Positions 788 through 61,580 of a stretch of 64,000 nucleotides of DNA are shown piece by piece (position 1 is the first letter of the stretch; each line of letters starts with the position of its first letter). Source of the stretch: Escherichia coli (GTDB lineage Bacteria; Pseudomonadota; Gammaproteobacteria; Enterobacterales; Enterobacteriaceae); assembly GCF_003991155.1 (NCBI RefSeq), contig NZ_CP031297.1; one strand, 5' to 3'. Both the position numbers and the translations under genes were made by a program. The notes beneath the pieces were generated by a model. The model saw only the letters and a program-made list of their open reading frames with translations, was not told where the DNA came from and did not search any database.

Positions 788-847
788 TCTCCCCGCTGTC
801 CACCTCGCACACTCCAAACGCCCAAACGCCCAAATAACTTGTCTATC

Positions 848-875
848 TGCCCAAAATGGGCGCGTAAGCGTCCGA
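848..875 (+). promoter_or_regulatory. Motif B (GCCC-AAAAT-GGGC dyad followed by TAAGCG), copy 1 of 8
   Basis: Recurring dyad/hairpin motif located upstream of plus-strand transcription units. Confidence 0.4.
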
Positions 876-10476: not shown

Positions 10477-10599
10477 CGTGTCGTTCCTCATAAAAAATTG
10501 TCGATGAGCCCATTCTAAAAGGGGGGGGATGGAAAGCTGGTTTCTCAAACTGCCCAAATTGGACAGATAGGCGTGTGTGCGATCTAAAGGTGTTTTGAG

Positions 10600-10648
10600 A
10601 GCATGTAGCGACGAGAAATACGATAGGAATATGGTCAACCTACATGCT
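10600..10648. promoter_or_regulatory. 9-bp inverted repeat AGCATGTAG / CTACATGCT spanning the relaxase start codon
   Basis: Arms at 10600-10608 and 10640-10648 in the divergent intergenic region. Confidence 0.3.
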
Positions 10649-17502: not shown

Positions 17503-18164
17503 TGCGTAAGAGAGATTTCTTTTTTGGAGAGGTGTATGAGGGGAGTGGAGGAGCCACTCTACGACTGAGTGATATGGAACCATTGGCAAGAAAAGTGTCG
17601 GCAGAGTTCTTCACTGCACAACTGAACCGTATACTGAAAGAGCATGACGGTCAGTTGACGCTCAGCGATGGAACGTCGTACCCCAGCTTTTGGAGCTTCA
17701 TCGACAAGGTTGATCCAGAGCAGGTTGGTTTCGTGGAGATCTACGCTCGGCAGGATGTTAACGATAATGTTGAAGCGACACTGGCGTGTGACATCGTTTT
17801 GGTAAATGGTGTGATCACCGTTAAACCTCACTGGTGTGCTTACAAAGACATCAGGGCTGACGAAGTGATTTCCACCTTACTGGTGCCTTTGCATTTGAAG
17901 GCTCTCCAGGGTAAGGCTTACATTCGCTGGGATGATGGTGAAACCGAACCTCTGTTACAAAACGACGACTATCAGGCTGAACTTGAAAATGTGTTTAGTG
18001 TTTCCAAGTACCCATCAGCCATGAGCTGGGGCGATACAGCAGACCAGAAGGTTAAGCAGTACAAGATGGACCTTGAGTGCGCCACAGATGTTGGTCGTCG
18101 AGGTGTCTCATCAGAGCAAGCATGGGATGCTTATCGAGAACTCCGTTACAATAGAACAGTGTGA
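17502..18164 (+). CDS. Hypothetical protein of the transfer cluster
   Basis: TAATG overlap; AAAGGTGG SD. Confidence 0.8.
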   Translation: MRKRDFFFGEVYEGSGGATLRLSDMEPLARKVSAEFFTAQLNRILKEHDGQLTLSDGTSYPSFWSFIDKVDPEQVGFVEIYARQDVNDNVEATLACDIVLVNGVITVKPHWCAYKDIRADEVISTLLVPLHLKALQGKAYIRWDDGETEPLLQNDDYQAELENVFSVSKYPSAMSWGDTADQKVKQYKMDLECATDVGRRGVSSEQAWDAYRELRYNRTV

Positions 18165-18190
18165 AACAAGCGGCCATCGGCCGCTTTGAA

Positions 18191-18206
18191 CTTTCACATG
18201 TGAAAG
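18191..18206. promoter_or_regulatory. Palindrome CTTTCACATGTGAAAG (copy 2)
   Basis: Exact copy, intergenic. Confidence 0.5.
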
Positions 18207-18251
18207 TTTTTCGCCTCCCGCTCTTATCATCTCCTCGAATAAACCTCCATA

Positions 18252-18281
18252 AAGTGCCCAAAATGGGCCGTAACAGCACTG
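18252..18281 (+). promoter_or_regulatory. Motif B (GTGCCC-AAAAT-GGGC ... TAACAGCA), copy 2
   Basis: About 45 bp downstream of palindrome copy 2. Confidence 0.4.
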
Positions 18282-18344
18282 TTCCTAGATTGATCAATTA
18301 AGAGACGATTACTCCGTGATGACGACAAGTTATTTGGAGGGTCT

Positions 18345-18488
18345 ATGTCCGCACAAGCTCACGTCAGAGAAAGCGAAAGCTCATCTGGTTCATTCATCTC
18401 CTGGCAGTTCCTTGTCTGGCAGGTGATGTTCGTTATAGGTGTTGTTGCAGGGATGAACCTGGAACACGCATTCAATTTTCTAGGTTAA
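18345..18488 (+). CDS. Small hydrophobic protein (47 aa)
   Basis: ATG with GGAGGG SD; stop overlaps next start (TAATG); not in ORF track (below size cutoff). Confidence 0.35.
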   Translation: MSAQAHVRESESSSGSFISWQFLVWQVMFVIGVVAGMNLEHAFNFLG

Positions 18489-18865
18489 TGGGAGGAAGTG
18501 TGAACCTTAATAAACAATTTTTCTGGTTTTTGATGAACGCGGTGCTGATGTGCATCTTCATCGTTCCAGTGGCCGTCGCGTTTTGGCTGTCTGCTTTTGC
18601 GGCAGGTTTTGACTGGAGTCAGTGGGTTAAGTTGGCTGCTGATACGGCCAACAGAGCTGCAAGTGACCCGGCCAAGGCTCTGGGCACGGTTCAGACCTAC
18701 TGGGGCATTCTCAGCTTCTTCCTGCTGGCGGCGTACAGTCTGATGTTCAAGTTTAAAGCCAATGCTAACAAGGAAGTGAAAACTCTGGAGGTGGCCCGAC
18801 CAGCCAATGAAGTTAGCGTTGCGGCTTCGGAAAAACATTCGGAAGCGGTTCCTCAAAATCAATAA
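18488..18865 (+). CDS. Membrane protein of the transfer cluster
   Basis: ORF 125 aa with two hydrophobic segments. Confidence 0.75.
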   Translation: MGGSVNLNKQFFWFLMNAVLMCIFIVPVAVAFWLSAFAAGFDWSQWVKLAADTANRAASDPAKALGTVQTYWGILSFFLLAAYSLMFKFKANANKEVKTLEVARPANEVSVAASEKHSEAVPQNQ

Positions 18866-18882
18866 CCGATCCAGTAAACGCA

Positions 18883-18912
18883 AAAAAGGCGGCTTAGGCC
18901 GCCTTTTTTTAT
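18883..18912 (+). terminator. Intrinsic terminator (GGCGGC-ttag-GCCGCC + T-run)
   Basis: Perfect GC hairpin followed by TTTTTTT. Confidence 0.7.
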
Positions 18913-18920
18913 TTGTCGCT

Positions 18921-18952
18921 GGAAGTGCCCGAAAAGGGCGCGAAGCCGTGGC
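18921..18952 (+). promoter_or_regulatory. Motif B (GTGCCC-GAAAA-GGGC), copy 3
   Basis: 10 bp after terminator, 60 bp before next operon. Confidence 0.4.
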
Positions 18953-19009
18953 AGAAAATCAGTGACCCTGAATGAGAATACAGGCCACTAGGAAAAGAAG
19001 AGGGTTGCT

Positions 19010-19291
19010 ATGAAGCCTGTAAAGATACCGCGCCGGGTCGATGAGCCCCCGCATCTGCTGTTGTGGAGCGCAGATGAGTTGGCCCCGATGCTTTTGGGGC
19101 TAACGATAGGGGTCATCATCGGTAAGGCTCTGATCTGCTTTCTGGGGGGGTTACTTGTAACCAACCTTTATCGCCGATTCAGGGATAACCATCCGGATGG
19201 ATACCTGCTCCACATGATCTACTGGGCCGGGTTCATCATGACCAAGGCCAAATCTCTCAAGAACCCGTTTGTCCGGAGGTATTTGCCTTGA
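19010..19291 (+). CDS. Small membrane protein of the T4SS cluster
   Basis: AAGAGGG SD; hydrophobic core. Confidence 0.8.
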   Translation: MKPVKIPRRVDEPPHLLLWSADELAPMLLGLTIGVIIGKALICFLGGLLVTNLYRRFRDNHPDGYLLHMIYWAGFIMTKAKSLKNPFVRRYLP

Positions 19292-19914
19292 ACCTGAAAA
19301 AGTATCTCAAGACCTGGGAAGGGACCCAAACAGAAAATAAGTGGGGGCGAATCTTCCAGGGTGGTCTTATTGCTATCGTTTTCCTGCTGGTGGTCCAAGT
19401 ATTCAGCAAGGAAACCATCGTCACTATCCAGCCTTTCACGCTCACGGAAGAAGCCTGGGTGACGAAAAGTAACGCCTCTCAGTCCTATAAAGAGGCTTGG
19501 GGTTTCGCTTTTGCTCAGCTCCTTGGCAATGTGACGCCAGGAACCGTTGACTTTGTGAAAGAACGGATCACCCCGCTTCTCTCCCCGAGCATCTATCAGG
19601 ACGTGATTGATGCCATCGAAATTCAAGCTCAACAGATCAAGAACGACCGCGTAACCATGCGGTTTGAGCCGCGTTTTGTTGAGTACGAGCCCAAGAGCGA
19701 CAAGGTGTTTGTCTACGGATATTCCTACGTCAAAGGGGCTTCTTCTAACGAAGAGCGTAGCGAACGCTCCTACGAGTTCGCCATCAAGATTTCAAACTAC
19801 GCGCCCGTGCTGGACTACATCGACACCTATGTAGGAAAGCCACGCACCAAAACTGTTTTGGAGCAACTCCAGCGCAAAGAAGAAAACCGGAGAAAGCATG
19901 AAGAACAACGCTAA
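19288..19914 (+). CDS. Membrane-anchored T4SS protein (TTG start)
   Basis: TTG start with GGAGG SD overlapping preceding stop; single N-terminal TM. Confidence 0.7.
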   Translation: MNLKKYLKTWEGTQTENKWGRIFQGGLIAIVFLLVVQVFSKETIVTIQPFTLTEEAWVTKSNASQSYKEAWGFAFAQLLGNVTPGTVDFVKERITPLLSPSIYQDVIDAIEIQAQQIKNDRVTMRFEPRFVEYEPKSDKVFVYGYSYVKGASSNEERSERSYEFAIKISNYAPVLDYIDTYVGKPRTKTVLEQLQRKEENRRKHEEQR

Positions 19915-20815
19915 ACTTTCGCTCCTGGCGCTGTCCTTGGCGCTTGGAACTTCAATGGCCTATGCCTCGGATGACATTCCTGTTGTCCCGGCCAGTGTTA
20001 TGAAAAAGGATGTTCCTGCCCCTGTGACGTCAGGACAAAGCTCCCATGAGGTTGTGGGCAGCATGAATGAAAACCCCTTACTGACGATGAAGCCGGGGGT
20101 TAACCAGATCATCCCGATAGCCGTTGGTCATCCGAACCGAATCGTCACGCCTTTCAGCAATCCTGAGATCGTTTCAACATCTCTGACCGGGGCGACGGAT
20201 AACGGCCAGTGTGGTGAGGTCTGCATCAAAGAGAATGTGGTCTATGTCGCCACGGATAAGCAGTATCCGGTGACTATGTTCATTACTGAAAAAGGCTCGG
20301 AAGCCCAAGCTCTCAGCCTGACGATGGTTCCCCGTCGTATTCCGCCCAGAGAAGTCTTTCTCAAGCTCGATGGTGGTGTAGGTATCACTGGTGCTTTTGC
20401 CAATACCAAGGCTGAGACCTGGGAACAGAGCCAGCCTTATGTCGAAACCATCCGGTCGGTATTCCGCAAGATTGCTCTTGGTGAAGTCCCTCAAGGTTAC
20501 ACGTTGAACCGCATCCCTGCTGGTGCTGCGGTGCCGAGCTGCGCTCATCCTGGGGTAAAGGTGGATTTCAGCAAGGGGCAATACATGATGGGCCACCACC
20601 TTAACGTGTTCATCGGTGTCGCCCTGAACGTCTCTGATCAGCCTATTGAGTTCAAAGAGGCGTTGTGTGGGAGCTGGGATGTGGCTGCGGTGACTACGTG
20701 GCCGCTTAACGTGCTTGAGCCCGGCCAGAAGACGGAGATCTATGTGGCGAAGAAGCAGAAGCGTGGTCTCGCACCAACGTCTAAGCGTCCATCGCTGCTG
20801 GGAGGTGCCCAATGA
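19898..20815 (+). CDS. Secreted T4SS protein (signal peptide)
   Basis: Signal peptide MKNNAKLSLLALSLALGTSMAYA. Confidence 0.8.
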   Translation: MKNNAKLSLLALSLALGTSMAYASDDIPVVPASVMKKDVPAPVTSGQSSHEVVGSMNENPLLTMKPGVNQIIPIAVGHPNRIVTPFSNPEIVSTSLTGATDNGQCGEVCIKENVVYVATDKQYPVTMFITEKGSEAQALSLTMVPRRIPPREVFLKLDGGVGITGAFANTKAETWEQSQPYVETIRSVFRKIALGEVPQGYTLNRIPAGAAVPSCAHPGVKVDFSKGQYMMGHHLNVFIGVALNVSDQPIEFKEALCGSWDVAAVTTWPLNVLEPGQKTEIYVAKKQKRGLAPTSKRPSLLGGAQ

Positions 20816-22128
20816 TTAAGCGATTTTGGACACAGTTAGACCCCAACAAGAAGCGTTGGGTGTCTATCGCTGGCGGCGTCTTCGTTCTTTTTGCGGTCGT
20901 GACAATGTTCTCTGGTGAACCCAAGAAAGAAGAGAAGCGCGGTCGCCAAGAAACCATCAAGCACGTTCTCACAGACAAAAACACCCGTGAGATCGGGATA
21001 GATTCGTTGTCTGCCGATGTGAAGATGGTGTCTCGTGAAAACTCCGACCTGAAAAAGGAGCTGGAACGAGTCAAGAAAGAGCTGGAGGAAACCAAAACCA
21101 CTGCCGGGAAATCCAGTGATGTTGGCCGTGAGATGACCCGCCTTCGTCAAGATTTGGACCGCCTGACCCAGAAGAACATGGAATTGGCTAAGAAAGTCGA
21201 AACCGGCGCTGCTGGTGGAAAAACATCCTCTTCATCAGAGGATGCCAGAGCCGATGTTAATGGTGCATCTGGTGGTGATGGTCAGTTCATGGAGAAAAAG
21301 CTCGACTACAAAGATCCTGCATCCTTTTTTCGGGACGCACCGCTTCCTGACTCGAAGGGTGGGGCTCCTGCAACTGGCAAGGGAGACGGTCGTGATGCAA
21401 CTAAACCAGGCATCCAAATAGTGAGCTACTCGCAGAAAGCGCCAGAAGTTGAAGAGAAGGACAACAAGGATGATGAGTCTATCTACCTACCTTCTGGCTC
21501 CATCCTGACAGGGGTGCTCATCAACGGTATGGACGCACCAACATCTCAAGGTGCTCGTCGAGATCCGTTCCCTTCGACCCTCAGGATTCAGAAAGAGGCT
21601 ATTTTGCCTAACCGCTTCCGTGCGGATGTTCGTGAGTGCTTCCTGATTGTTTCAGGCTATGGAGATCTCAGTTCAGAGCGAGCGTACCTGCGTGGCGAGA
21701 CCTTCTCGTGCGTTCGGGATGATGGGGGTGTCATAGAAGCGAAGCTGGATTCCTATGCAGTGGGTGAAGACGGTAAGGCCGGTGTCCGTGGTCGCGTCGT
21801 ATCGAAGCAGGGGCAAATCATCGCCAAGAGCTTGATGGCAGGCTTCCTTGGTGGCGTTTCCGAAGCCTTTGACGTCAATCCTGTGCCGGTCGTTAGCACT
21901 AACCCTGGCTCAAATACCCAGTACCAGTCTGTGTTCTCCGACCAGATGTTGCAGGGAGCAGCAGTGAAGGGGGCCAGTAAGGCGCTAGATCGCATCGCTC
22001 AGTTCTATATCGACATGGCCGAAGGCATCTTCCCTGTTATCGAGGTCGATGCTGGCCGTCAGGTAGACATCATCGTGACCAAAGGAACCAAGCTACAAAT
22101 TCGTTCCACCGGGGGAACCAAGAAATGA
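20812..22128 (+). CDS. T4SS protein with N-terminal TM, coiled-coil and C-terminal domain (VirB10/TraB-like by architecture)
   Basis: ATGA overlap; GGGAGG SD; TM + coiled-coil + Gly-rich region. Confidence 0.8.
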   Translation: MIKRFWTQLDPNKKRWVSIAGGVFVLFAVVTMFSGEPKKEEKRGRQETIKHVLTDKNTREIGIDSLSADVKMVSRENSDLKKELERVKKELEETKTTAGKSSDVGREMTRLRQDLDRLTQKNMELAKKVETGAAGGKTSSSSEDARADVNGASGGDGQFMEKKLDYKDPASFFRDAPLPDSKGGAPATGKGDGRDATKPGIQIVSYSQKAPEVEEKDNKDDESIYLPSGSILTGVLINGMDAPTSQGARRDPFPSTLRIQKEAILPNRFRADVRECFLIVSGYGDLSSERAYLRGETFSCVRDDGGVIEAKLDSYAVGEDGKAGVRGRVVSKQGQIIAKSLMAGFLGGVSEAFDVNPVPVVSTNPGSNTQYQSVFSDQMLQGAAVKGASKALDRIAQFYIDMAEGIFPVIEVDAGRQVDIIVTKGTKLQIRSTGGTKK

Positions 22129-22703
22129 AAAATTTGAACATTTTGACCAGAAAGGGCAGTTCCAGAGGCGAGGCTCAAAAGGAACAGGCAGTAAGATCCG
22201 CAAAGATGTTGGGGGTGGGTGCAGCGCTACTTATTTTGTCGGGCTGTTCGACGTTCAACATCGGCAAGGATGAGTATAGCTGTCCGGGAATGCCGAATGG
22301 TGTTCAGTGTATGTCAGCGCGAGACGTTTACGCCGCAACCAATGACGGAAATGTCCCGCGTCCAATGAAACCAGAGGAAGTCGAGGCCAAAGCGGAAGCG
22401 GATGGCGAAGGTTCCTCAAACGTTTCAGCGAACTCATCTAGCTCCGGAGACCCGGTGATTGACAACTATGTCGCACCGCGTCTTCCGGATCGCCCGATTC
22501 CAATTCGTACACCAGCACAGGTTATGCGGATTTGGGTAGCTCCCTGGGAGGACACCAATGGTGATCTCATCGTGACAGGGTATGTCTATACCGAAATCGA
22601 ACCGCGCAGGTGGGTGATTGGGGATGGCACACCGCAAAGTGAGCCAGTTTTGAGACCGCTGCAAACGGTACAACACGAACCGAAGTCTGAAACAACCAAA
22701 TAG
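22125..22703 (+). CDS. T4SS lipoprotein (LILSGCS lipobox)
   Basis: ATGA overlap; lipobox. Confidence 0.8.
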   Translation: MKNLNILTRKGSSRGEAQKEQAVRSAKMLGVGAALLILSGCSTFNIGKDEYSCPGMPNGVQCMSARDVYAATNDGNVPRPMKPEEVEAKAEADGEGSSNVSANSSSSGDPVIDNYVAPRLPDRPIPIRTPAQVMRIWVAPWEDTNGDLIVTGYVYTEIEPRRWVIGDGTPQSEPVLRPLQTVQHEPKSETTK

Positions 22704-22715
22704 GAGATGTTCTTG

Positions 22716-23099
22716 ATGAACGCAAATCAGTTGGCGAATGCCTCAAGTAAAAACAACGCACTCTTCCTCTTCCTGGGGTTGATGGTGGTAGCCTTCCTGC
22801 TCGTGCCGGATCAGGCCCACGCTGGTACTGGTGGTACAGCGTTTGACGACGTATGGGTAACTCTCAAGGATTGGACCCAAGGTACTTTGGGTCGAATCGT
22901 TGCGGGTGCGATGATCCTGGTCGGTGTTGTTGGTGGTATCGCTCGCCAGAGCCTCATGGCTTTCGCTATGGGTATCGGTGGCGGTATGGGCCTGTACAAC
23001 TCCCCGACCGTAGTGGAATCCATCATGTCTGCTACTCTGGAACATGCAGAGAAGGTCATCCCGGCTGTTGTGCAACTCAGCAATGGCCTGGGGGTGTAA
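22716..23099 (+). CDS. Pilin-like protein (long signal peptide + two hydrophobic segments)
   Basis: ATG at 22716 (ORF 22707..23099); TrbC/VirB2-like topology. Confidence 0.7.
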   Translation: MNANQLANASSKNNALFLFLGLMVVAFLLVPDQAHAGTGGTAFDDVWVTLKDWTQGTLGRIVAGAMILVGVVGGIARQSLMAFAMGIGGGMGLYNSPTVVESIMSATLEHAEKVIPAVVQLSNGLGV

Positions 23100-23131
23100 A
23101 AGACACCTTGCCGTTAATCAACGGGTGATAG

Positions 23132-23160
23132 GGGCAGCCTAAAAGCTGCCCTTATTTTTT
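23132..23160 (+). terminator. Intrinsic terminator (GGGCAGC-ctaaaa-GCTGCCC + T-run)
   Basis: GC hairpin + TTATTTTTT. Confidence 0.7.
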
Positions 23161-23206
23161 GGCAAAAAGTCCAGTCATAACAAATTCCAACTATTTCCTT
23201 ATTTGC

Positions 23207-23236
23207 TCAAAAAGGGCACTTCCACAGCCCATGTTT
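23207..23236 (+). promoter_or_regulatory. Motif B variant (GCTC-AAAAA-GGGCAC ... CACAGCCC)
   Basis: Between terminator and giant gene. Confidence 0.3.
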
Positions 23237-23299
23237 ATGCACTCCCTCCCGTAACCTCCAGCATTGGGTTCTTGTAACTCAAAACGAATGGAGAATGCG

Positions 23300-26200
23300 A
23301 TGATCAATTTCAAGCCTAAAATTCCGGCGATGCTTGGGGCTCTGGCGGTTCTTACCGCTGGTGCTGCTCATGCAGAGCTGCTGGAATACACCTTTAAGGC
23401 TCCAGATGGTACGCAACGGTCTCTGACTCCGAATGCCAACTATGCCAACCCAACGGGCAATATCTCGTTTGCCTTGAGTGCCGGTATCGACCGAAAGGTA
23501 AAGATTTCGGTGCTTCGGTCGGATGGAACAGTGGTTTCGACAGCGACCAGCCACCTTCTTGGGGCTACTGATCGCATCACAGTGGGTGGAAAATCCTACT
23601 ATGGTGCGGAACTTCAACTACCAGCTCCAGTTGGTGGGGCATACACTATCAGGGCGGAAATTCTTGCCTCTGATGGTTCTACAGTACAGACGGATGAATA
23701 CCCTCTTACTGTCGATGTGACGCCGCCAACCTACTCTTCGCTTGCCCCGGTTTATAGTAACTATGGGCAGGTTACTAGCGGTGATGTTTGGAAACTGGGT
23801 CTAGGTGGCTCTGAGGATAATGCCTTTTTGCTGTCAGGAATCTCTGATGAGTCACCCATCAAAGGCGTCAAAGCAAAGCTGTATCGTCAAGACGGTTCAC
23901 TCTACAAAGATGTATCCGTGAACTACGATGACGCTAACGGACAAGCTAGACAGTCTTTCCAATCTGGCTTTTTCCCAGCCTCTGACTTGGATGAAGTGTT
24001 TACACTTCAGTTTGAGATAAGCGATAGCGCTGGAAATAGCTATCTTTCACCTCGTCAAAAAGTGATGTTTGATAGCATAACCAATGCTCCGTCTGCACCT
24101 TTTGGTGTTTATGACCCTTCAAGTACAAACAACTTAGGCCCTGGATTAACCGGATTTGTTGCTTACACTGAGGGCATGACAGTTAAAACTAACCCAATCA
24201 AGTTAGCTTGGCGTGTTCCGCGTGATAACTGGCATGAGTATAGAGAAGGTGGGATAAATATGACCAATGCCTTGGGAGAGATGTCCAAGGTAGGAGAAGA
24301 TGCCAGCTATGTTTATCTCGTCACAACCGCACCTTATGGCAATACCGACGGCAATTATTGGCGTTGGGTGAACTTCGGCCAGTGGGGGGGAGGCGGTATT
24401 GCTTATAACCTCACACTCTCTCCATCAGCGCCTAAAAGTCCCAGACTTTTGGGTGTGGACTACAATTACAGTGATATAGGATGGTCTAGTTTTTACCGCT
24501 ACTGGGTGAACAATTCTGTTCTTCCTGTCACTGTTAGTAGTATCCGTGTCAAAGTTGAACCAAGGCCTTACGTTCAAACTGCCGTTCACAGGGGAAGCTG
24601 TGAAATTCCTGTTGGTCAAGATAGCTGCGTGATTGCAAATAGCTTCACAATGGCTAAAGGCACAACAGGGTACGTCCACGATAATGCGACAGTTTTCAAT
24701 CCGGATAAATCTCTTCGCTCGAATCCTCTTTGGGCAGAGGTTAACTGGAACGATCAGCACTACCCTCAGCTAAGTCAGCAGTTCGATCAAAATAGCAAGG
24801 TATTTACCTTATTCGTTAACCAGCCAGGACGAGGCGCTTACTTTGATAGGCTGCGTCTGCGAAGTGCATGGATTGAAGATAGCAAAGGCAACAAGCTGTC
24901 TCCAACTGGTGGGTTAATAGCCAACAACTGGGAGAACTACACTTACCAGTGGGATCTTAAAACTCTCCCTGAGGGGCAATACAGTCTTGTTGCCGCAGCA
25001 GAGGAGATGCACGGGCCTTTAACGCGACAACCAATGTTCCAGATAACGTCTGATAGAACGCCACCAACCATGACACTCAGTGTGGCAGATGGAGCAGCTA
25101 TCCAGACTCTAGATGATGTTGTTATTACCTTGGCTGATGCTATCGACCCTTCACCTAAATTGACCTCTATTGCCCTTGTAGGGGGGCCTGCCAATGACAA
25201 GGTGCAGTTGTCTTGGCGTGAGGAGTCGAAAGGTCGATTCCGCCTTGAGTACCCGGTAATGTTCCCTTCTTTGAAGGAAGGGGAATCTTACACGCTGACT
25301 GTTTCCGGTGAGGATGCACAAGGCAATGCGGTTCAAAAGGCTGTTGGCTTCGAGTACAAACCTCGTCAGGTAATGCTGGCGGATGGGATGGATGGCAAGG
25401 TCATGGTCCCCGCTGTCACTCATGAATTTGTTCATGCAGATGGCAAACGGATCATCGAAACCAAGCCGCTGACGCTCAGTGATGGTGCTGTCGTGACAGG
25501 TTCATACGACGTGTTTGCGACCCTACGTTCTGATGCGAAAGTACCGCTGGTGGTTAATGGGGTGCGTATCGAGCCAGGCCAGACAATGGGGATCATGAGC
25601 CAACATGATTTCGGTGCGTCAGGTGGTCGTTTGAGCATTCCGGTTAAACCTGCTGTTCCTGATGTGGTCGGCTCTTCCAGCCTTCTTGTCATGACCTCCG
25701 CGCCGAACTCACCCATCTTGGTTGTGGACATCAATACCTGGAAAGGGACGGCTAAGCTCTCTGCTGAATCATGGACAATTCGCCAGGTCATTGACCCAGT
25801 GAAAATCTATGCCCTGCCAGAGTCGGGTGTGCCTTGCCGGTTCACCACGAAAGAGGATGTGGCTATGGCCGCAGACCCAATTCGTGACCCGGTGTGTTTG
25901 CTCCAGTGGGACAGAACTCCAGATGAGGCTGAACAAACTACGCAGGACAACAACGGGATGAAAGTTGCTGGGCTGGTGGGGCAGGCTGTGAGCATTGGTG
26001 AACAACCTGTCGAATACAGCCTGTACCTGTTCAGTGGTGACGGTTCCAAGGTAAAAGTTGGGTCTGGCTCTCAGAACCTGACGGTAACTACTGCCTATGG
26101 CTCTGTTGGCTACACCCCGATTGATGACATTGCTCAGGTGAATCGCGTCATTGAAGATTTTGATGTGAACTTCAAGCAGAGCAAGGGGCCAGACTGTTCT

Positions 26201-35845: not shown

Positions 35846-35960
35846 GCAGACCCTAACGAATTTGCACGGGCATTTTAGATTATGCCCCAAAAGGGCCACT
35901 ACACGTACAGGTGGCCCTTGTCTTCTCAGATAGCATGGGAAGGTTGAAATGGAGAACACA

Positions 35961-40419: not shown

Positions 40420-40497
40420 TAGAGATACTCCTAAATTTGAGGTACAGATAAACGCACTGGAAAGGATAAATGCGGTCAATCTGTAACCTGACCTCTC

Positions 40498-40530
40498 GAA
40501 GTGCCCAAAATGGACAGTTACAGCGTTTTC
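40498..40530 (+). promoter_or_regulatory. Motif B (GTGCCC-AAAAT-GGAC ... TTACAGCG), copy 6
   Basis: Divergent intergenic region before the array. Confidence 0.4.
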
Positions 40531-40565
40531 TGTTTAGCAAAGGTGAGCTATATTTGAATCATCTT

Positions 40566-40616
40566 AGTCGCTCTGCGGCTATAGGTGAGATAGCTGGTCT
40601 CCGAAAACAAACAGCA
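40566..40616 (+). promoter_or_regulatory. Conserved leader element C, copy 1 (hairpin GAGA-TAGCTGG-TCTC + CGAAAACAAACAGCA)
   Basis: Seven related copies, each before a gene block. Confidence 0.45.
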
Positions 40617-40713
40617 TCTAGTCTTATGCCGTATGGCATTACTTAACCCCAAGCCGGGGGCTTCTCCCGGTTTTCGGGTGTTGCCCCTGTTTTTTTTACA
40701 TAGGAGCAACACC

Positions 40714-41034
40714 ATGCACATCATCACTTTCATTGTAGTTCTGCTTGCATCTCTGGGCGCACTGTACGTAGGCGCGAAGGCATTTGCTTTTTCCTTCATC
40801 GTTCTCGCTAAAGTGTTCCAGCGTATCGGTTTGTTCCTTTGGAACAAATTCGCAGTTCCTGCAATGCGGTCTGTACAGGCCGTCATCAAAGAACGTGCTG
40901 CCAAGGCTGAACAAGCCAAAGCAGTCGTTGAACCTGAGGTAACTCAAGTTCAAGAAGTCGCTAAACAAGAACCTGACTGGGATTATCTCGAAATCCCGAC
41001 TTACCTTCGTAAGGGCAAGGAACTTGTTTGGTAA
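40714..41034 (+). CDS. Small membrane protein carrying an FtsZ C-terminal-peptide-like tail (EPDWDYLEIPTYLRK)
   Basis: ATG at 40714 with AGGAG SD; N-terminal hydrophobic 35 aa; C-terminus matches the FtsZ conserved C-terminal peptide (E. coli ...EPDYLDIPAFLRKQAD, from memory). Confidence 0.75.
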   Translation: MHIITFIVVLLASLGALYVGAKAFAFSFIVLAKVFQRIGLFLWNKFAVPAMRSVQAVIKERAAKAEQAKAVVEPEVTQVQEVAKQEPDWDYLEIPTYLRKGKELVW

Positions 41035-41073
41035 TAACTGTCGCTGAGTAATCTTCGACACTTTCAAACCCAT

Positions 41074-41113
41074 CGGGGCAACCATACCCCGACGGGGATG
41101 TTGCCCCTTTTTG
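41074..41113 (+). terminator. Terminator-like hairpin (GGGGCAAC ... GTTGCCCC + TTTTT)
   Basis: GC stem + T-run after gene 40714..41034. Confidence 0.45.
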
Positions 41114-41128
41114 CTTAGGAGCAACATC

Positions 41129-41221
41129 ATGGAAATCGCTATCATCGCTTTGTGTATCCCTGCTGGTTGGGCAATCTCTCGTCCTTTCGTGAGAATCGCT
41201 GAATCGTTCGGTTACTGCTGA
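41129..41221 (+). CDS. Tiny hydrophobic peptide (30 aa)
   Basis: Same TAGGAGCAACAYCATG context as the preceding gene; MEIAIIALCIPAGWAISRPFVRIAESFGYC. Confidence 0.35.
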   Translation: MEIAIIALCIPAGWAISRPFVRIAESFGYC

Positions 41222-41337
41222 TAGTCAACGCAAAGGGAGGGGGCAACCCCTCTCTTTCTGGTCAAGCCTCTGTGGCTTGTCCTCAAAGTCTTCTGGTGTC
41301 AGTTGGCTTTGACGACAAGCTACAGGGGGAATGTCGA

Positions 41338-41523
41338 ATGCAACAGAATCTTCATGTTTACGACGATCACGCAGGCATCATCTATCTGGCTGATGGACGC
41401 GAGGTGAAATTTGATCCGAAACTGTATTCCAGCTCCTACCAGGCGCACAGTGAAGCAGTGAAGTGGGCCAAAGAAACCGGGGTCATTGGTCAAAACGACG
41501 ATGTGGTGATGTTCGTCCATTGA
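41338..41523 (+). CDS. Small hypothetical protein (61 aa)
   Basis: ATG at 41338 with AGGGGGA SD. Confidence 0.5.
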   Translation: MQQNLHVYDDHAGIIYLADGREVKFDPKLYSSSYQAHSEAVKWAKETGVIGQNDDVVMFVH

Positions 41524-41600
41524 GGGAGTAGCCTCCAGGAGAGGCTACTCTCCTCGCTCCTTAAAAGTCTTCTTACTCATGGTGAATACCATCAGTAAGC

Positions 41601-41660
41601 AGATTTTGTTCTCTTCGGAGAGCGAAAAGTGCGATAGCTGGTCGCCAAAAACAAACAGCA
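41601..41660 (+). promoter_or_regulatory. Leader element C, copy 2 (hairpin CTCTTCGGAGAG, hairpin GCGA-TAGCTGG-TCGC, CAAAAACAAACAGCA)
   Basis: Part of a 121-bp block identical to 46436..46556. Confidence 0.5.
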
Positions 41661-41742
41661 AATTAACGTTAATTTACTAGCCCAACCGGGCGCATCCGCC
41701 CGGTTCGGGACGTGGTGCGCCTGTCACAATAGGAGCGCACCT

Positions 41743-42711
41743 ATGTCTCAATACTCTCAATTCTCAGTAAGCAAGGTTTTCGGTATGCCCAGCATTCCGG
41801 AGAAGGTAACGGCCATCGGCTACGCTGACGGTTCAAACCCTTTCATCCCTGCCACTGATACCAACTACGTTTTCCGCAAAGAGTTTCTGCGAGAGGTCTT
41901 GGCCTATCTCAAAGAGCCTGGCGGTGACGCATTGTTCGTAACCGGCCCTACCGGGTCTGGCAAAACCTCAGGTATCACCGAGATCGCTGGTCGTCTCAAC
42001 TGGCCTGTTCAGCAAATCACTGCCCACGGGCGGATGGAGCTGACAGATCTGATTGGACATCACGCTCTGGTCGCGGAAAAGCCTGGTCAACCACCTGTCA
42101 TGAAGTTCATGTATGGACCTCTGGCAGTCGCTATGCGTGAAGGTCATCTGCTCCTCATCAACGAGGTGGATTTGGCCGACCCTGCCGAGCTGGCTGGTCT
42201 CAACGATGTCCTTGAAGGGCGTCCCCTTGTGATCGCTCAGAATGGCGGGGAAATCATCAAGCCGCACCCGATGTTTCGTGTGGTCGTTACTGGTAACTCT
42301 ACGGGGTCCGGTGATGCTTCTGGTTTGTACCAGGGGGTGATGATGCAGAACCTCGCAGCTATGGATCGCTATCGTTTCACCAAAGTAGGGTATGCGGATG
42401 AGGAAGCTGAACTCAGCATTCTTGGCCGTGCTACTCCGAAACTTCCGGAAAATGTGCGGAAGGGAATGGTTCGGATTGCTAATCAGGTCCGCAAACTGTT
42501 TCTTGGCGAAAACGGTGAAGATGGTCAGATCAGCGTCACCATGTCCACTCGGACGTTGGTGCGTTGGGCGAAACTGTCTCTAGCGTTCCGTGGTGCCCCA
42601 AATGCTCTTGAATACGCCTTGGATCAAGCTCTGCTTATCCGTGCGGCCAAAGAGGAGCGTGAAGCCATCCTGCGTGTTGCGAAGGATGTGTTCGGGGACC
42701 AATGGCGCTAA
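41743..42711 (+). CDS. AAA+ ATPase, MoxR/CobS-like
   Basis: Walker A GPTGSGKTS; Walker B LLLINEVD; 322 aa. Confidence 0.85.
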   Translation: MSQYSQFSVSKVFGMPSIPEKVTAIGYADGSNPFIPATDTNYVFRKEFLREVLAYLKEPGGDALFVTGPTGSGKTSGITEIAGRLNWPVQQITAHGRMELTDLIGHHALVAEKPGQPPVMKFMYGPLAVAMREGHLLLINEVDLADPAELAGLNDVLEGRPLVIAQNGGEIIKPHPMFRVVVTGNSTGSGDASGLYQGVMMQNLAAMDRYRFTKVGYADEEAELSILGRATPKLPENVRKGMVRIANQVRKLFLGENGEDGQISVTMSTRTLVRWAKLSLAFRGAPNALEYALDQALLIRAAKEEREAILRVAKDVFGDQWR

Positions 42712-42721: not shown

Positions 42722-43630
42722 ATGAAGAAAAATGACTGTTTGTGCCGTCGTTACACTGCTAAAGAGTGGGGCAATGACGAAACCACAATAGAAGTCTTCA
42801 TTGGCTACAAGTTGCTCCGGGAGCCCAGCTCCTCGGAGCCAGGCCAATTCACGATGGTCGAGCTACGCCGAACCGTCACTGATGGGAAAGCTGAAAATTG
42901 GTCTGAGACAAAGCTCGAAGGACCTTTTGAAGCTAACGGCCCAGACACGATCCCAATGTCCTACAAGGACAAAGAAAGCCAGTATGTGTCACAGTTTCTC
43001 AGCCAGGGGTACACCTTTCTGGATGAGGTGCTGGTAAACGCAGAGACACAGACGGTGCTGGAAGGGGGGAATGTTTCAGCCGGACAAACAGCCAGCTTGG
43101 GATCTCTCAACTGGCTGTTATCTCCGCCCTCTGAGTTACCTCCAGGTGACATAAACCTCTTCAAAGGTTTTGTTGCTGGGGTTTTTGCCAAAGGAGCCGG
43201 TTTAATCGGCTTTGAGGTTGCTCGGAGCGAAGGCTCAAATGACTTGCTACCCAGTGTGCTGATGCGTACTGACAGCGGTTATGAGCTTGGGGTTAGCACT
43301 GGACTAGGCGAAAACACTATCCATCCAGCTACGCTGGAAGGCGCTGGTGAACTCCGCCCGGAACATGGTCACAAACCCCTGCTGATGTTGGTTTACCTGC
43401 AACAGCGTTTCGCGGATGACTTTTCAAACGTAGAGAAGCCGCTGGTGGCATTCTGTGATGAACAGGGTGATACCTTCGACTACGAGCGTTTTGATTCACT
43501 AAAACCCCTCATTGAACGGTTTGGTTTCAGCTACGACGAAGTAAGAGCAGATGCAGAAAGGCTTGGCCTTGTATCTGAGCTGATTCGCCTGGCAGAGATC
43601 GACGCCGAACAAGAGGATCACTTTTTTTAA
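42722..43630 (+). CDS. Hypothetical protein
   Basis: AGAGGTGA SD; 302 aa. Confidence 0.8.
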   Translation: MKKNDCLCRRYTAKEWGNDETTIEVFIGYKLLREPSSSEPGQFTMVELRRTVTDGKAENWSETKLEGPFEANGPDTIPMSYKDKESQYVSQFLSQGYTFLDEVLVNAETQTVLEGGNVSAGQTASLGSLNWLLSPPSELPPGDINLFKGFVAGVFAKGAGLIGFEVARSEGSNDLLPSVLMRTDSGYELGVSTGLGENTIHPATLEGAGELRPEHGHKPLLMLVYLQQRFADDFSNVEKPLVAFCDEQGDTFDYERFDSLKPLIERFGFSYDEVRADAERLGLVSELIRLAEIDAEQEDHFF

Positions 43631-46378: not shown

Positions 46379-46435
46379 GTGGGGGATTTTCCCCCGCTTT
46401 CCCTTGGGGATTCTGGGAGTCTCCAACGGAAAGCA

Positions 46436-46495
46436 AGATTTTGTTCTCTTCGGAGAGCGAAAAGTGCGATAGCTGGTCGCCAAAAACAAACAGCA
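46436..46495 (+). promoter_or_regulatory. Leader element C, copy 3 (identical to copy 2)
   Basis: 121-bp identity with 41601..41721. Confidence 0.5.
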
Positions 46496-46577
46496 AATTA
46501 ACGTTAATTTACTAGCCCAACCGGGCGCATCCGCCCGGTTCGGGACGTGGTGCGCCCCCAACTTTTTGGAGTGCATC

Positions 46578-50145: not shown

Positions 50146-50178
50146 CTTTGCACCCGAAAAGGGCAGTTTGAGCGTTCC
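50146..50178 (+). promoter_or_regulatory. Motif B (GCACCC-GAAAA-GGGC ... TTTGAGCG), copy 7
   Basis: Stem GCCC/GGGC with GAAAA loop. Confidence 0.4.
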
Positions 50179-50267
50179 TGTTCACACAGCTCTCGTGGAA
50201 CAATCAAAGTGAGGAGGGAATACCCTCCCACTTTCTCAGAGGCCTTCATTGAGGGTTGCTGAGAAAG

Positions 50268-50327
50268 TGAATTTTGTCCTCTCTGAGGGCGAAACGTGCG
50301 ATAGCTGGTCGCCAAAAACAAACAGCA
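50268..50327 (+). promoter_or_regulatory. Leader element C, copy 4
   Basis: CCTCTCTGAGGG hairpin, GCGATAGCTGGTCGC hairpin, CAAAAACAAACAGCA. Confidence 0.5.
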
Positions 50328-50937: not shown

Positions 50938-51027
50938 ATCGCCGTTCAACCATTAACCCTAATTAACCCTATGGGGCTCCGATAGCCCTGAGGGGACGGG
51001 GCTCCGCAATCGCAATAAGGAGTCCCT

Positions 51028-51528
51028 ATGAAAAACCTATCAGCTTTGGAAGCAGTTCTTGACTACGACAAACCTTCTCGACGTTTTCTTGATGAGCTCA
51101 ACGAAAACCAGATGAAGGATTTGTCCGGGGAAATCTTCGCCAAGCTCTACTGGAGCAAGCGTAATCCCCAGTGGTACGAGAAAGACACCAATCGGCTGTT
51201 TGCACGACTTCGTTGGGTTCAGCGCATCATCAAGAAGCGCTTGAAAACCGGCAAGGTTAAACCTGAACTGACAGAAAATGGTTCAGTGATGGAGCGCTTC
51301 AACTTCCCTTATGGTGACACTCTCGATTTCTTCCATCGGTACTTGCGACATCCCAAATGGGAGGTTGTGTATCAAGAATCGGGGTGCAGTGCCTTTTGGA
51401 AAAATGAAGCAACGCTTGAGCTATGCACCTACTGCGAAGGTGATGTGGTCATGATGAAGGCTCCTGATGAAGCAACCTTCTTTCGTGATTGCAATCGCCT
51501 TAGCTGGTGGTATGCAGATAACGCTTGA
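51028..51528 (+). CDS. Hypothetical protein
   Basis: AAGGAG SD; 166 aa. Confidence 0.75.
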   Translation: MKNLSALEAVLDYDKPSRRFLDELNENQMKDLSGEIFAKLYWSKRNPQWYEKDTNRLFARLRWVQRIIKKRLKTGKVKPELTENGSVMERFNFPYGDTLDFFHRYLRHPKWEVVYQESGCSAFWKNEATLELCTYCEGDVVMMKAPDEATFFRDCNRLSWWYADNA

Positions 51529-51601
51529 TCTTAATCCCTAACCAGGGGCGAACCGGCCCCTGATGGGAGCATGGTGCGCCCCATCTATGATGGAGGACGC
51601 C

Positions 51602-52486
51602 ATGTTCAAATCATCAGTATGCTCCTACGAAAACAGGGGGCCTTACGGAAACAACAAGTACCGAGGCAACTGCTCGGGCTTTATCGTTAAAGACTTCATT
51701 GAGTCTTACATGAGAAAGCCGAACGGGCTGGTGGCAGACCCAAGTGTTGGGGGTGGCTCTAGCATCGACGTTGCCAATGAACTTGGTGTCCGTTTCAAAG
51801 GGACAGACTTGCATCAGGGGTTCAACCTGTTGCGGGATGACTTCCTTTCGTTCCTCGGAGAGCCTGCACACCTGATCTGGTGGCACCCTCCTTACTGGGA
51901 CATGATCCAGTATTCAGGTAAGCAGTGGGGCGAGCCCAACAAATGGGATATGAGCCGCATGAATTTGCCTGAGTTCGTTGAAGCCCTTGAGCTGGCCGTT
52001 ATGAATATTCATGACGCCTGTGAGCGAGGAGGGCATTACGGAATCCTCATGGGAAACCTGAGGCGCGATGGGGATTATTTCAACCTGTCCAGCCTTGTGG
52101 AACGTATCGCACCTGGGAAGCTGGTGGATGAGATCATCAAAACACAGCACAACTGTGTGAGTGACCGAACTCAGTATTCCGGGAAGCTGGTGCGTATCGC
52201 CCATGAAAAGCTGTTGGTGTTTCGTCGTAACGACGTTGCCTCATCGCTCTGTCTTCTTGCTGCCGTACACCGTCGAGCAACCAATATGGTTTCGACTACG
52301 TGGAAAGCTGCAATACGCCGAACCCTACAGGGGAAAACGTTGAAGCTGGAGCAGATTTACAAAGAGATTGAACCCTACGCAAAGCATCGAGAGAACAACC
52401 ACTGGCAAGCAAAGGTCAGGCAAGTTCTTCAAGATGCCAGGTTCTTTATTCGCATCGAGGTAGGTGTCTATGCACTTGCTGAGTAG
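51602..52486 (+). CDS. Putative DNA methyltransferase (motif I-like ADPSVGGGSS, motif IV-like HPPY)
   Basis: ATG at 51602 with GGAGGA SD; motif order I then IV about 50 aa apart. Confidence 0.65.
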   Translation: MFKSSVCSYENRGPYGNNKYRGNCSGFIVKDFIESYMRKPNGLVADPSVGGGSSIDVANELGVRFKGTDLHQGFNLLRDDFLSFLGEPAHLIWWHPPYWDMIQYSGKQWGEPNKWDMSRMNLPEFVEALELAVMNIHDACERGGHYGILMGNLRRDGDYFNLSSLVERIAPGKLVDEIIKTQHNCVSDRTQYSGKLVRIAHEKLLVFRRNDVASSLCLLAAVHRRATNMVSTTWKAAIRRTLQGKTLKLEQIYKEIEPYAKHRENNHWQAKVRQVLQDARFFIRIEVGVYALAE

Positions 52487-52551
52487 CCCAACCGGGGCGT
52501 GACATCCCGGAGGGGATTGGTCGCGCTCATCAACAACAAAGGAGCGTGACC

Positions 52552-52776
52552 ATGAACGTACAACTTCAAGCCAGCAACAATGTGCTGTTGGCGCAAATCG
52601 AAAGCAAAGGCCTCACTGTTGAAACGCATTGTCGCAGTGGCTTTTGTGGCATGTGCCGGGTTCGTCTACTCGAAGGTCAAGTGGCTTATGACGAGACGCC
52701 CATCGCATTTGTCAAAGAAGGGGAAGTGTTGGTTTGCTGCGCTAAAGCAAAAACCGATGTGACCTTGGAAATTTAA
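52552..52776 (+). CDS. YfaE-like 2Fe-2S ferredoxin
   Basis: 74 aa; C-x4-C-x2-C ... C pattern (HCRSGFCGMCRVRL...VLVCCAK). Confidence 0.8.
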   Translation: MNVQLQASNNVLLAQIESKGLTVETHCRSGFCGMCRVRLLEGQVAYDETPIAFVKEGEVLVCCAKAKTDVTLEI

Positions 52777-52837
52777 CCCATCCGGAGGAGCCTTTCCTGC
52801 GGGTGGGGCTCCTCTATCCATTACGAGGAGAAACACT

Positions 52838-53227
52838 ATGTCTATCAATACCAAAGTTGAACAAATCGCATACGGTCATGCTACCGCTCTAGTGCTCAGT
52901 GAACTGGGCCAACAAGAGAATTGGTGCAAGGCTTATGAGTATTTGTCTGAGTGTGTAGAACGGGGAGACGAACCTGAGGATCTGGTCGTTTGGCAACCGT
53001 TTGAGCACTGGGAATGGAAAGACATTCTGGAGCAGATCGAGAGCGAAGCCGAGTCTCTGCTTTCGACTATTAAGTCGGTTTTAGGCTTGGCCCACAAAGG
53101 CATCATTCAGTCAGCAATTGACTGCTCTCTGGATTCGGACATGACCCAGCTTGACCTGATTGGAATGGTCGAGCTCGGAAGTGAAATCGAAGATGGGGAG
53201 TGTGCTGGAGGTGGCTATGCAGCTTAA
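52838..53227 (+). CDS. Small highly acidic protein
   Basis: GAGGAGA SD; about 20% Asp+Glu. Confidence 0.7.
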   Translation: MSINTKVEQIAYGHATALVLSELGQQENWCKAYEYLSECVERGDEPEDLVVWQPFEHWEWKDILEQIESEAESLLSTIKSVLGLAHKGIIQSAIDCSLDSDMTQLDLIGMVELGSEIEDGECAGGGYAA

Positions 53228-53669: not shown

Positions 53670-53673
53670 TCCT

Positions 53674-53949: not shown

Positions 53950-54006
53950 CCCACGGGGCCGCTCTTCCTGATGGGAGACGGTCCTCCATTCTCAAAGGAG
54001 AAGACC

Positions 54007-54198: not shown

Positions 54199-54266
54199 CT
54201 ATGACTGTAACCCCACTGGGGGCTTCATGCCCCTGTGGGGGCATGGTGCCCGTAAAAGGAGTCACC

Positions 54267-54620: not shown

Positions 54621-54645
54621 CCCCCTGCTTTCCCAGTGGCATCGA

Positions 54646-54661
54646 CTTTCACATGTGAAAG
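54646..54661. promoter_or_regulatory. Palindrome CTTTCACATGTGAAAG (copy 4)
   Basis: Exact copy 20 bp upstream of leader element C copy 5. Confidence 0.5.
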
Positions 54662-61519: not shown

Positions 61520-61520
61520 A

Positions 61521-61550
61521 AAGCCCTCCTTCGGGAGGGCTTTTTCTTTT
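61521..61550 (+). terminator. Intrinsic terminator (AGCCCTCC-ttcg-GGAGGGCT + T-run)
   Basis: Perfect hairpin + TTTTTCTTTT. Confidence 0.75.
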
Positions 61551-61580
61551 GCACCCCAAAAGGGCAATTACAGCGTTTTA
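61547..61580 (+). promoter_or_regulatory. Motif B (GCACCCC-AAAA-GGGC ... TTACAGCG), copy 8
   Basis: Immediately after terminator. Confidence 0.4.

What the first reader, a model, noticed from the sequence alone, without database searches (positions are those of the whole stretch)
18921..18952. Recurrent hairpin motif resembling a boxB-type stem-loop at the start of transcription units
Eight copies of GYRCCC-(G/A)AAA(A/T)-GGGC followed about 5 nt later by TTACAGCG occur near 848, 18252, 18921, 23207, 28844, 40498, 50146 and 61547. Four of them lie directly after intrinsic terminators and before the next gene block. The GCCC/GGGC stem with a GAAAA or AAAAT pentaloop resembles the lambda nut boxB hairpin as I recall it. 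It could be a DNA operator or promoter box, or an RNA site that lets transcription read through the many downstream hairpins.
Basis: partly seen in the sequence, partly recalled or inferred. Interest (0 to 1): 0.6.

Follow-up and report, generated by a model that had tools for sequence, protein, structure and literature searches.

The report
AcaCD activator boxes of IncC plasmid
The recurring "hairpin" is the already-described DNA binding site of AcaCD, the master activator that switches on the transfer genes of IncC/IncA multidrug-resistance plasmids. It sits upstream of each transcription start and is not a lambda boxB-type RNA signal.

Summary

The window is an IncC conjugative-plasmid backbone. 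It is 100% identical to many sequenced plasmids and about 98% identical to pVCR94deltaX positions 19548-89103.

A weight matrix trained only on 13 AcaCD boxes from outside the window recovers exactly these 11 loci and nothing else.

Published 5'-RACE and Cappable-seq starts, carried into the window, lie 35-37 nt downstream of every box. The box therefore spans -64 to -37, abutting a missing -35 element. Purified AcaCD footprints the GCCC-N5-GGGC inverted repeat on double-stranded DNA, and deleting it abolishes activation (Kiss 2015).

The boxB reading fails its own refutation test and its defining features:
- only 2 of 11 loops are GAAAA;
- only 4 of 11 stems are perfect;
- there is no boxA partner and no N-like protein.

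Verdict: already known and ordinary.

In passing I found a separate, apparently undescribed structured element (TAGCTGG-loop hairpin) in gene leaders between 40.5 and 58.5 kb.

The parts
18922..18949 (+). AcaCD box of the traL promoter (the flagged copy): GAAGTGCCCGAAAAGGGCGCGAAGCCGT
   Evidence: Identical to the pVCR94deltaX ChIP-exo motif at 43396-43424. A PWM trained on external sites hits this locus on both strands.
18974..18987 (+). -10-like hexamer GAGAAT (18974-18979) and the traL transcription start (18985-18987), mapped from pVCR94 5'-RACE
   Evidence: TSS 43460-43462 in Table S3 of PMC4207636. The sequence from the box to the TSS is identical in the window. Spacing from box end to TSS is 37 nt.
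18882..18909 (+). Intrinsic terminator closing the upstream traI-vcrx069 unit, 12 nt before the traL box
   Evidence: 12-bp stem followed by a T run.
844..871 (+). AcaCD box of vcrx036. An overlapping - strand box at 839-866 faces vcrx035.
   Evidence: TSS mapped to 906-908.
10547..10574 (+). An overlapping - strand box at 10542-10569 drives divergent vcrx059.
   Evidence: TSS 10609-10611 (+) and 10504-10506 (-).
18251..18278 (+). AcaCD box of vcrx068
   Evidence: TSS 18314-18316.
22140..22167 (+). It lies inside the traB/traV coding overlap.
   Evidence: TSS 22202-22204.
23200..23227 (+). AcaCD box of vcrx076 (1840-aa Ig-like protein)
   Evidence: TSS 23263-23265.
28841..28868 (+). AcaCD box of the dsbC-traC-traW-traU operon, directly after the terminator at 28801-28824
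   Evidence: TSS 28904-28906.
35879..35906 (+).
   Evidence: TSS 35941-35943. The box and the -10 element are the only conserved blocks in the IncC/IncA/pAQU-like alignment.
40498..40525 (+). AcaCD box of vcrx087. An overlapping - strand box at 40493-40520 drives divergent vcrx086.
   Evidence: TSS 40559-40561.
50147..50174 (+). AcaCD box of vcrx098
   Evidence: [quoted passage not shown]
61548..61575 (+). AcaCD box of vcrx114, directly after a terminator at about 61518-61550
   Evidence: TSS 61610-61612.

Best explanation
Each copy is an AcaCD box. This is the 28-bp double-stranded DNA operator (5 bp, then GCCC-N5-GGGC, then a 10-bp 3' extension ending near TACAGCG) of AcaCD, the FlhDC-family heteromeric activator of IncA/IncC conjugative plasmids.

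The box occupies -64 to -37 of promoters that have a weak -10 element and no recognisable -35. Bound AcaCD abuts the -35 position and recruits sigma-70 RNA polymerase, in the manner of a class II activator. This switches on the transfer operons (traI-D, traL-E-K-B, traV-A, dsbC-traC-W-U, traN) and several accessory operons together.

Shown by published experiments on identical sequence:
- in vivo binding (ChIP-exo);
- transcription start positions (5'-RACE, Cappable-seq);
- AcaCD dependence of expression (RNA-seq, lacZ fusions).

Shown on an SGI1 copy of the box: binding to double-stranded DNA in vitro, and the need for the inverted repeat.

Inferred: the precise contact with RNA polymerase, and that this particular plasmid carries acaCD outside the window.
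For: 1. The window is an IncC backbone. It is 100% identical to many IncC plasmids over 18000-23300 and about 98% identical to pVCR94deltaX 19548-89103.
3. A PWM built only from 13 AcaCD boxes outside the window (SGI1, MGIVmi1 and other parts of pVCR94) finds exactly these 11 loci. There are 15 hits above 12 bits against 0.5 expected, and no other locus scores.
4. Distance from box end to TSS is 35-37 nt at all 10 sites with a 5'-RACE start. The palindrome centre is at -51 to -53, and a -10-like hexamer sits at the right place. No sigma-70 -35/-10 consensus promoter lies at any box: the scans returned no + strand match in 18000-29200 or 51000-64000, and the + strand matches elsewhere (900, 6520, 9461, 10595, 40695) do not coincide with a box.
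5. Durand 2021 (PMC8373056): Cappable-seq plus ChIP-exo place the AcaCD/SgaCD site at -64 to -37, with the palindrome GCCCNDWWWGGGC, in a class II arrangement.
6. Kiss 2015 (PMC4605294): purified AcaCD shifts and DNaseI-footprints double-stranded DNA containing GCCCTAAAAGGGC. Deleting the inverted repeat abolishes activation.
7. Boxes sit at orthologous positions (traI, vcrx068, traL, traV, Ig-like gene, dsbC, traN) in an IncA plasmid and in a distant pAQU1-like Vibrio plasmid. There the box and the -10 element are islands of conservation in diverged spacers.
Against: acaC and acaD are not in the window (tblastn finds nothing). The activator for this exact molecule is assumed from family membership; in pVCR94 it lies about 28 kb beyond the window end.

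No binding or transcription start was measured on this molecule; both are transferred from a roughly 98% identical plasmid. For vcrx098 no 5'-RACE start was reported.

Two boxes (vcrx068 and traV) lie inside longer upstream operons and so can also be present in read-through RNA.
Confidence: 0.97

Rival explanations
1. A boxB/nut-like RNA hairpin. The motif would be transcribed, fold into a GCCC/GGGC stem with a GAAAA-type pentaloop, bind an N-like Arg-rich protein, and make RNA polymerase resistant to the downstream hairpins.
For: The traL and vcrx098 copies (GCCC-GAAAA-GGGC) closely resemble lambda boxB GCCCUGAAAAAGGGC. The traL copy gives the best fold of the set (13-nt hairpin -6.6 kcal/mol; 40-nt z = -2.6). 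One exact boxA-like CGCTCTTA lies at 18219, upstream of the box at 18251. The vcrx068 and traV boxes lie within longer operons and can be transcribed by read-through.
Against: Transcription starts lie 35-37 nt downstream of every box, so the motif is absent from the transcript it controls. The GAAAA loop occurs at only 2 of 11 sites. Only 4 of 11 stems are perfect, 5 have a mismatch, and the A.G mismatch in the traV box is conserved across three plasmid lineages. Fold z-scores are mostly unremarkable, ranging from -2.6 to +1.4. The single boxA match is the number expected by chance on one strand of 64 kb (my estimate) and is spaced 29 nt from the stem, against 8-9 nt in nut sites. The Arg-rich ORFs I inspected are out-of-frame or antisense shadows inside longer ORFs; I saw no credible N-like gene. 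Rfam finds nothing. The protein that acts on this sequence binds double-stranded DNA.
Confidence: 0.02
2. An operator for some other plasmid regulator (for example the repressors Acr1/Acr2 or an H-NS-like protein), or a generic dispersed palindrome of the REP/terminator-remnant kind with no specific activator.
For: The core is a palindrome, as many repressor operators are. Three copies abut terminators.
Against: The motif is asymmetric (a 3' extension oriented toward the gene) and sits at a fixed distance from the transcription start. ChIP-exo with tagged AcaC maps to these exact sequences, and expression of the downstream genes rises from about 0 to hundreds or thousands of units only when AcaCD is supplied. 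[quoted passage not shown]
Confidence: 0.01

Closest known systems
AcaCD-responsive promoters (AcaCD/SgaCD box) of IncA/IncC plasmids, SGI1 and MGIVmi1-type islands (Carraro 2014; Kiss 2015; Durand 2021)
   Same: Identical sequences at identical backbone positions. Same 28-bp architecture, same -64 to -37 placement and same downstream genes.
   Different: Nothing of substance. This is another sequenced copy of the same plasmid backbone.
SetCD boxes of SXT/R391 integrative conjugative elements
   Same: Same logic. An FlhDC-family heteromeric activator binds immediately upstream of a missing -35 element and turns on orthologous tra operons (traI, traL, traV, dsbC, traF), as a class II type activator (PMC4344509).
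   Different: The SetCD motif is 19 bp, and its authors state that it 'drastically differs' from the AcaCD motif. SetC/D share only 34% and 23% identity with AcaC/D.
FlhD4C2 boxes of class II flagellar promoters
   Same: Homologous activator family, with an inverted-repeat DNA site upstream of sigma-70 promoters (as cited).
   Different: Different sequence and a different regulon. Not compared at sequence level here.
Lambda nutL/nutR boxB RNA hairpin
   Same: Two of the 11 copies share GCCC-GAAAA-GGGC with boxB GCCCUGAAAAAGGGC.
   Different: boxB acts as RNA downstream of the promoter, with a boxA partner and N protein. Here the motif is upstream of the transcription start, acts as double-stranded DNA, and its loop and stem are not conserved as a hairpin.

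Membership tests
AcaCD box / AcaCD-responsive promoter | 28-bp motif with the palindrome GCCCNDWWWGGGC plus an oriented 3' extension | tested here: met
   A PWM from 13 boxes outside the window recovers all 11 loci at 10-32 bits. There are 15 hits above 12 bits against 0.5 expected.
AcaCD box / AcaCD-responsive promoter | Corresponds to a site bound by AcaCD in ChIP-exo | tested here: met
   The 29-mers of Table S3 (PMC4207636) are found identically in the window at the 11 positions. Binding itself was not measured on this molecule.
AcaCD box / AcaCD-responsive promoter | Box at -64 to -37 of a primary transcription start, with a weak -10 element and no -35 element | tested here: met
   Published starts mapped into the window put the box end 35-37 nt from the TSS at 10 of 10 sites, and -10-like hexamers are present. 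This agrees with Durand 2021.
AcaCD box / AcaCD-responsive promoter | Lies on an IncA/IncC (or dependent island) backbone upstream of transfer genes | tested here: met
   The window is 100% identical to IncC plasmids. It is syntenic with pVCR94deltaX, with traI, traL, traV, dsbC and traN downstream of the boxes.
AcaCD box / AcaCD-responsive promoter | Cognate acaC/acaD carried by the same element | tested here: inconclusive
   Not in the 64-kb window. In pVCR94deltaX the FlhC-family gene is at 117749-118300, beyond the window end.
Lambda-type nut site (boxA + boxB) | Motif is part of the transcript, downstream of the promoter it serves | tested here: not met
   The TSS lies 35-37 nt downstream of the box at every mapped site.
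Lambda-type nut site (boxA + boxB) | Conserved stem with a GNRA-like pentaloop (GAAAA or GAAGA) | tested here: not met
   GAAAA occurs at 2 of 11 sites; 4 of 11 stems are perfect 4-bp stems and 5 of 11 have a mismatch.
Lambda-type nut site (boxA + boxB) | boxA (CGCUCUUA) 8-9 nt upstream of boxB | tested here: not met
   One exact match in the whole + strand (18219), 29 nt from the nearest stem. None is found at the other 10 sites, even allowing 1 mismatch. The definition comes from PMC2724277.
Lambda-type nut site (boxA + boxB) | Arg-rich (ARM) N-like protein encoded nearby | tested here: not met
   The Arg-rich ORFs of 40-200 aa that I inspected are out-of-frame or antisense shadows within longer ORFs. 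Only the window was searched.
SetCD box (SXT/R391) | 19-bp SetCD motif | not tested
   The literature states the motifs differ. I held no SetCD matrix to scan with.

The most novel reading that the evidence does not exclude
In read-through transcripts the AcaCD box might have a second life as a small RNA hairpin that affects processing or termination. The traV box lies inside the traL-operon mRNA, the vcrx068 box lies inside the traI operon, and boxes follow leaky terminators at traL, dsbC and vcrx114. Nothing here supports this; it is only not excluded. If an RNA-level mechanism operates on this backbone, the better candidate is the separate TAGCTGG-loop leader element noted in passing.
Probability: 0.02. 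Interest if true: 0.4.

Novelty: already known. Interest (0 to 1): 0.1.

Why it matters
The biology is important but already worked out. AcaCD boxes are the switch that turns on conjugation of IncC/IncA multidrug-resistance plasmids, and genomic islands such as SGI1 copy them to hijack those plasmids. For this scan the value is negative: the motif needs no new explanation. The case also shows how a protein-bound DNA palindrome can mimic a famous RNA hairpin at one or two copies.

Tried and rejected
- RNA folding of all 11 copies. The hairpins are weak (13-nt dG -2.1 to -6.6 kcal/mol) and the 40-nt z-scores are mostly non-significant, so I rejected the motif as a structured RNA.
- boxA search with CGCTCTTA and TGCTCTTTA at 0-1 mismatch. 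One chance-level hit at 18219.
- Arg-rich small-ORF scan. The hits I inspected are shadow ORFs.
- Rfam at gathering threshold on the whole window found no hit. Rfam at E <= 10 on 40540-41760 found only noise.
- Sigma-70 consensus scans. No full promoter lies at any box, which fits activator dependence.
- tblastn of AcaC and AcaD against the window found nothing.
- Literature searches by sequence for the second element (TAGCTGG) found nothing relevant.

Full report
**What is in the sequence.** The flagged stretch 18921-18952 reads GGAAGTGCCCGAAAAGGGCGCGAAGCCGT. It sits 12 nt after a strong intrinsic terminator (18882-18909) and about 60 nt before the traL start codon. About 1.6 are expected, and 0 of 100 shuffles reach 8. 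Exact TTACAGCG follows only two of them; elsewhere the 3' half is degenerate. I can confirm three copies immediately after terminators (18882-18909, 28801-28824 and about 61518-61550), not four.

**What the window is.** The segment 18000-23300 is 100% identical to many IncC conjugative plasmids from Klebsiella, Salmonella, Escherichia, Vibrio and others; 933 records are at least 99% identical. The whole window aligns at about 98% to pVCR94deltaX (NC_023291.1) positions 19548-89103. This is the model IncC plasmid, typed IncC, MOBH, MPF_F. The gene order is traI-traD, traL-E-K-B, traV-A, a 1840-aa Ig-like protein, dsbC-traC-traW-traU, traN, then ssb/bet/exo and many genes of unknown function.

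**Identification.** Carraro et al. 2014 (PMC4207636) mapped the binding sites of AcaCD, the FlhDC-family master activator, on pVCR94 by ChIP-exo, and mapped transcription starts by genome-wide 5'-RACE. Table 1 of that paper lists boxes from the islands SGI1 and MGIVmi1, for example AATGTGCCCAAAAAGGGCCAATACAGCG. Table S3 lists coordinates on pVCR94.

I extracted the Table S3 coordinates from the pVCR94deltaX record and searched the window for them. All eleven + strand motifs in this part of the plasmid occur as identical 29-mers, starting at 843, 10546, 18250, 18921, 22139, 23199, 28840, 35878, 40497, 50146 and 61547.

As a non-circular test I built a weight matrix from 13 boxes that are not in the window: eight from SGI1 and MGIVmi1 and five from other parts of pVCR94. 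It recovers exactly these 11 loci, several on both strands because the core is palindromic, and nothing else. There are 15 hits above 12 bits against 0.5 expected in Markov-simulated sequence.

**How it works.** I carried the published 5'-RACE starts into the window; the sequence from box to start is identical at most sites. The box ends 35-37 nt before the start at all ten mapped promoters, so it spans about -64 to -37, with the palindrome centre at -51 to -53. A -10-like hexamer (GATATT, GAGCAT, GAGAAT, TAAGAT, TAGCAT, TATATT and others) sits at the expected place, and there is no -35 consensus. The consensus scans find no full sigma-70 promoter at any box.

Durand et al. 2021 (PMC8373056) repeated the mapping with Cappable-seq, which captures primary 5' ends only. 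They state that AcaCD and its SGI1 homologue SgaCD bind at -64 to -37, on the palindrome GCCCNDWWWGGGC, in a class II arrangement abutting the -35 position. Kiss et al. 2015 (PMC4605294) purified AcaCD, obtained gel shifts and a DNaseI footprint on double-stranded DNA over GCCCTAAAAGGGC in the SGI1 xis promoter, and showed that removing the inverted repeat abolishes activation. In Table S3 the downstream genes go from about 0 to hundreds or thousands of expression units when AcaCD is supplied.

The mechanism is therefore a base-specific double-stranded DNA operator for an activator that recruits RNA polymerase to promoters lacking a -35 element. Binding, start sites and activator dependence are shown experimentally on identical sequence. 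The exact contact with polymerase is inferred. acaCD itself lies outside the window.

**Comparative support.** The same matrix finds boxes at orthologous places (traI, vcrx068, traL, traV, the Ig-like gene, dsbC, traN) in an IncA plasmid (L005) and in a distant pAQU1-like Vibrio plasmid (L006). In three-way alignments of the traL, dsbC and especially the traN promoters, the box and the -10 element are the conserved islands in otherwise diverged spacers, at constant spacing.

**Why not boxB.** Lambda boxB is GCCCUGAAAAAGGGC, preceded by boxA CGCUCUUA and an 8-9 nt spacer (PMC2724277). Across the family, however:
- only 2 of 11 loops are GAAAA;
- 4 of 11 stems are perfect, 2 have a G.U pair and 5 have a mismatch;
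- the A.G mismatch of the traV box is conserved in all three plasmid lineages;
- the hairpins are weak, and fold z-scores range from -2.6 to +1.4.

There is one boxA-like octamer in the whole + strand, at 18219, and it is 29 nt from the nearest stem. I saw no credible N-like Arg-rich gene, and Rfam finds nothing. Most decisively, the motif lies upstream of the transcript it controls. The only residual possibility is that boxes inside longer operons (vcrx068, traV) are present in read-through RNA. Nothing suggests a function there.

**Verdict.** The feature is already known, and its interest as a discovery is low.

**Noticed in passing: a second repeat.** The same region holds a different repeat that I could not find in Rfam or in the searchable literature. 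It has six + strand copies, at 40577-40617, 41592-41660, 46427-46495, 50259-50327, 54673-54741 and 58484-58524. Each lies in the leader of a gene. The first copy begins 16 nt after the AcaCD-dependent vcrx087 start.

The core is a 4-bp stem of variable sequence around an invariant loop TAGCTGG. It is followed by C-rich/A-rich CAAAAACAAACAGCA and preceded by another hairpin. On 22 copies from IncC, IncA and pAQU-like plasmids the helix pairs in 110 of 110 cells, and three positions show double (compensatory) changes. Register-shifted controls pair in 22-52% of cells. There are no matches on the opposite strand.

I then scanned one genome per species with TAGCTGG-N7-AAAYAAACAG. It gave 140 matches, of which 97 have fully paired flanks against about 2% expected. 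These comprise 89 distinct copies with 23 different stem combinations. Several G.T pairs fall on the sense strand. The two bases after the pattern are CA in 78 of 89 copies, although the pattern did not require it.

Copies are multiple and co-oriented on contigs from Alpha-, Beta- and Gammaproteobacteria. In one betaproteobacterial contig they sit among RecE/RecT-like and PRTRC genes. The loop GCUG can pair with the tail CAGC across the A-rich linker, which would form an H-type pseudoknot. This is a proposal only and cannot be tested by covariation, because both sides are invariant. Whole leaders are strongly structured, with z-scores of -3.2 to -5.6. Its function is unknown. It looks like a sense-strand RNA leader element of conjugative elements and deserves its own evaluation.

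Noticed in passing
window 40577-40617, 41592-41660, 46427-46495, 50259-50327, 54673-54741, 58484-58524 (degenerate copy near 61635-61660); also L007, L008, L009-L128: A strand-specific leader element, absent from Rfam 15 and from the searchable literature. It has a variable 4-bp stem, an invariant loop TAGCTGG, and a tail C(A/G)AAAACAAACAGCA, and is preceded by a second hairpin. It lies in the leader of each downstream gene, with the first copy at +17 of the vcrx087 transcript. Pairing is 100% with compensatory changes on 22 plasmid copies. A species-wide scan gave 89 distinct fully paired copies with 23 stem variants, multi-copy on Alpha-, Beta- and Gammaproteobacterial contigs. A loop-tail pseudoknot (GCUG:CAGC) is possible. 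It is a candidate new cis-acting RNA motif of conjugative elements.
   Followed up: partly
window 41601-41721 and 46436-46556: Two 121-nt intergenic leaders are 100% identical to each other although they are 4.8 kb apart and precede unrelated genes (an AAA ATPase and a DUF3150 protein). This suggests recent gene conversion between copies of the leader element.
   Followed up: no
window 22125-22210: The longest traV ORF starts at 22125, and RefSeq annotates the equivalent start in pVCR94deltaX (46600). The AcaCD box (22140-22167) and the mapped transcription start (22202-22204) lie inside that ORF. The lipoprotein signal peptide MLGVGAALLILSGC begins at the in-frame ATG at 22206. The real start is therefore probably 22206, and the PtraV transcript would be leaderless or nearly so, with a 2-4 nt 5' UTR.
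   Followed up: partly
window 18917-18944 (- strand) and 28836-28863 (- strand): At the traL and dsbC promoters the complete 28-bp motif, including its 3' extension (TTCCAGCG), is also present on the - strand. It scores as high as or higher than the + strand box. Yet it points into the preceding terminator, and no - strand transcription start was reported there.
   Followed up: no
window 18219-18226: This is the only exact lambda boxA-like octamer (CGCTCTTA) on the + strand of the window. It lies in the intergenic spacer 29 nt upstream of the stem of the vcrx068 AcaCD box. One occurrence is about what chance predicts on one strand of 64 kb (my estimate), and I judge the proximity coincidental.
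   Followed up: partly
window 35000-64000: Sigma-70 consensus promoter matches are well below the shuffle expectation: 4 against 11.6 and 1 against 9.2, almost none on the + strand. This would fit a backbone that avoids activator-independent promoters.
   Followed up: no
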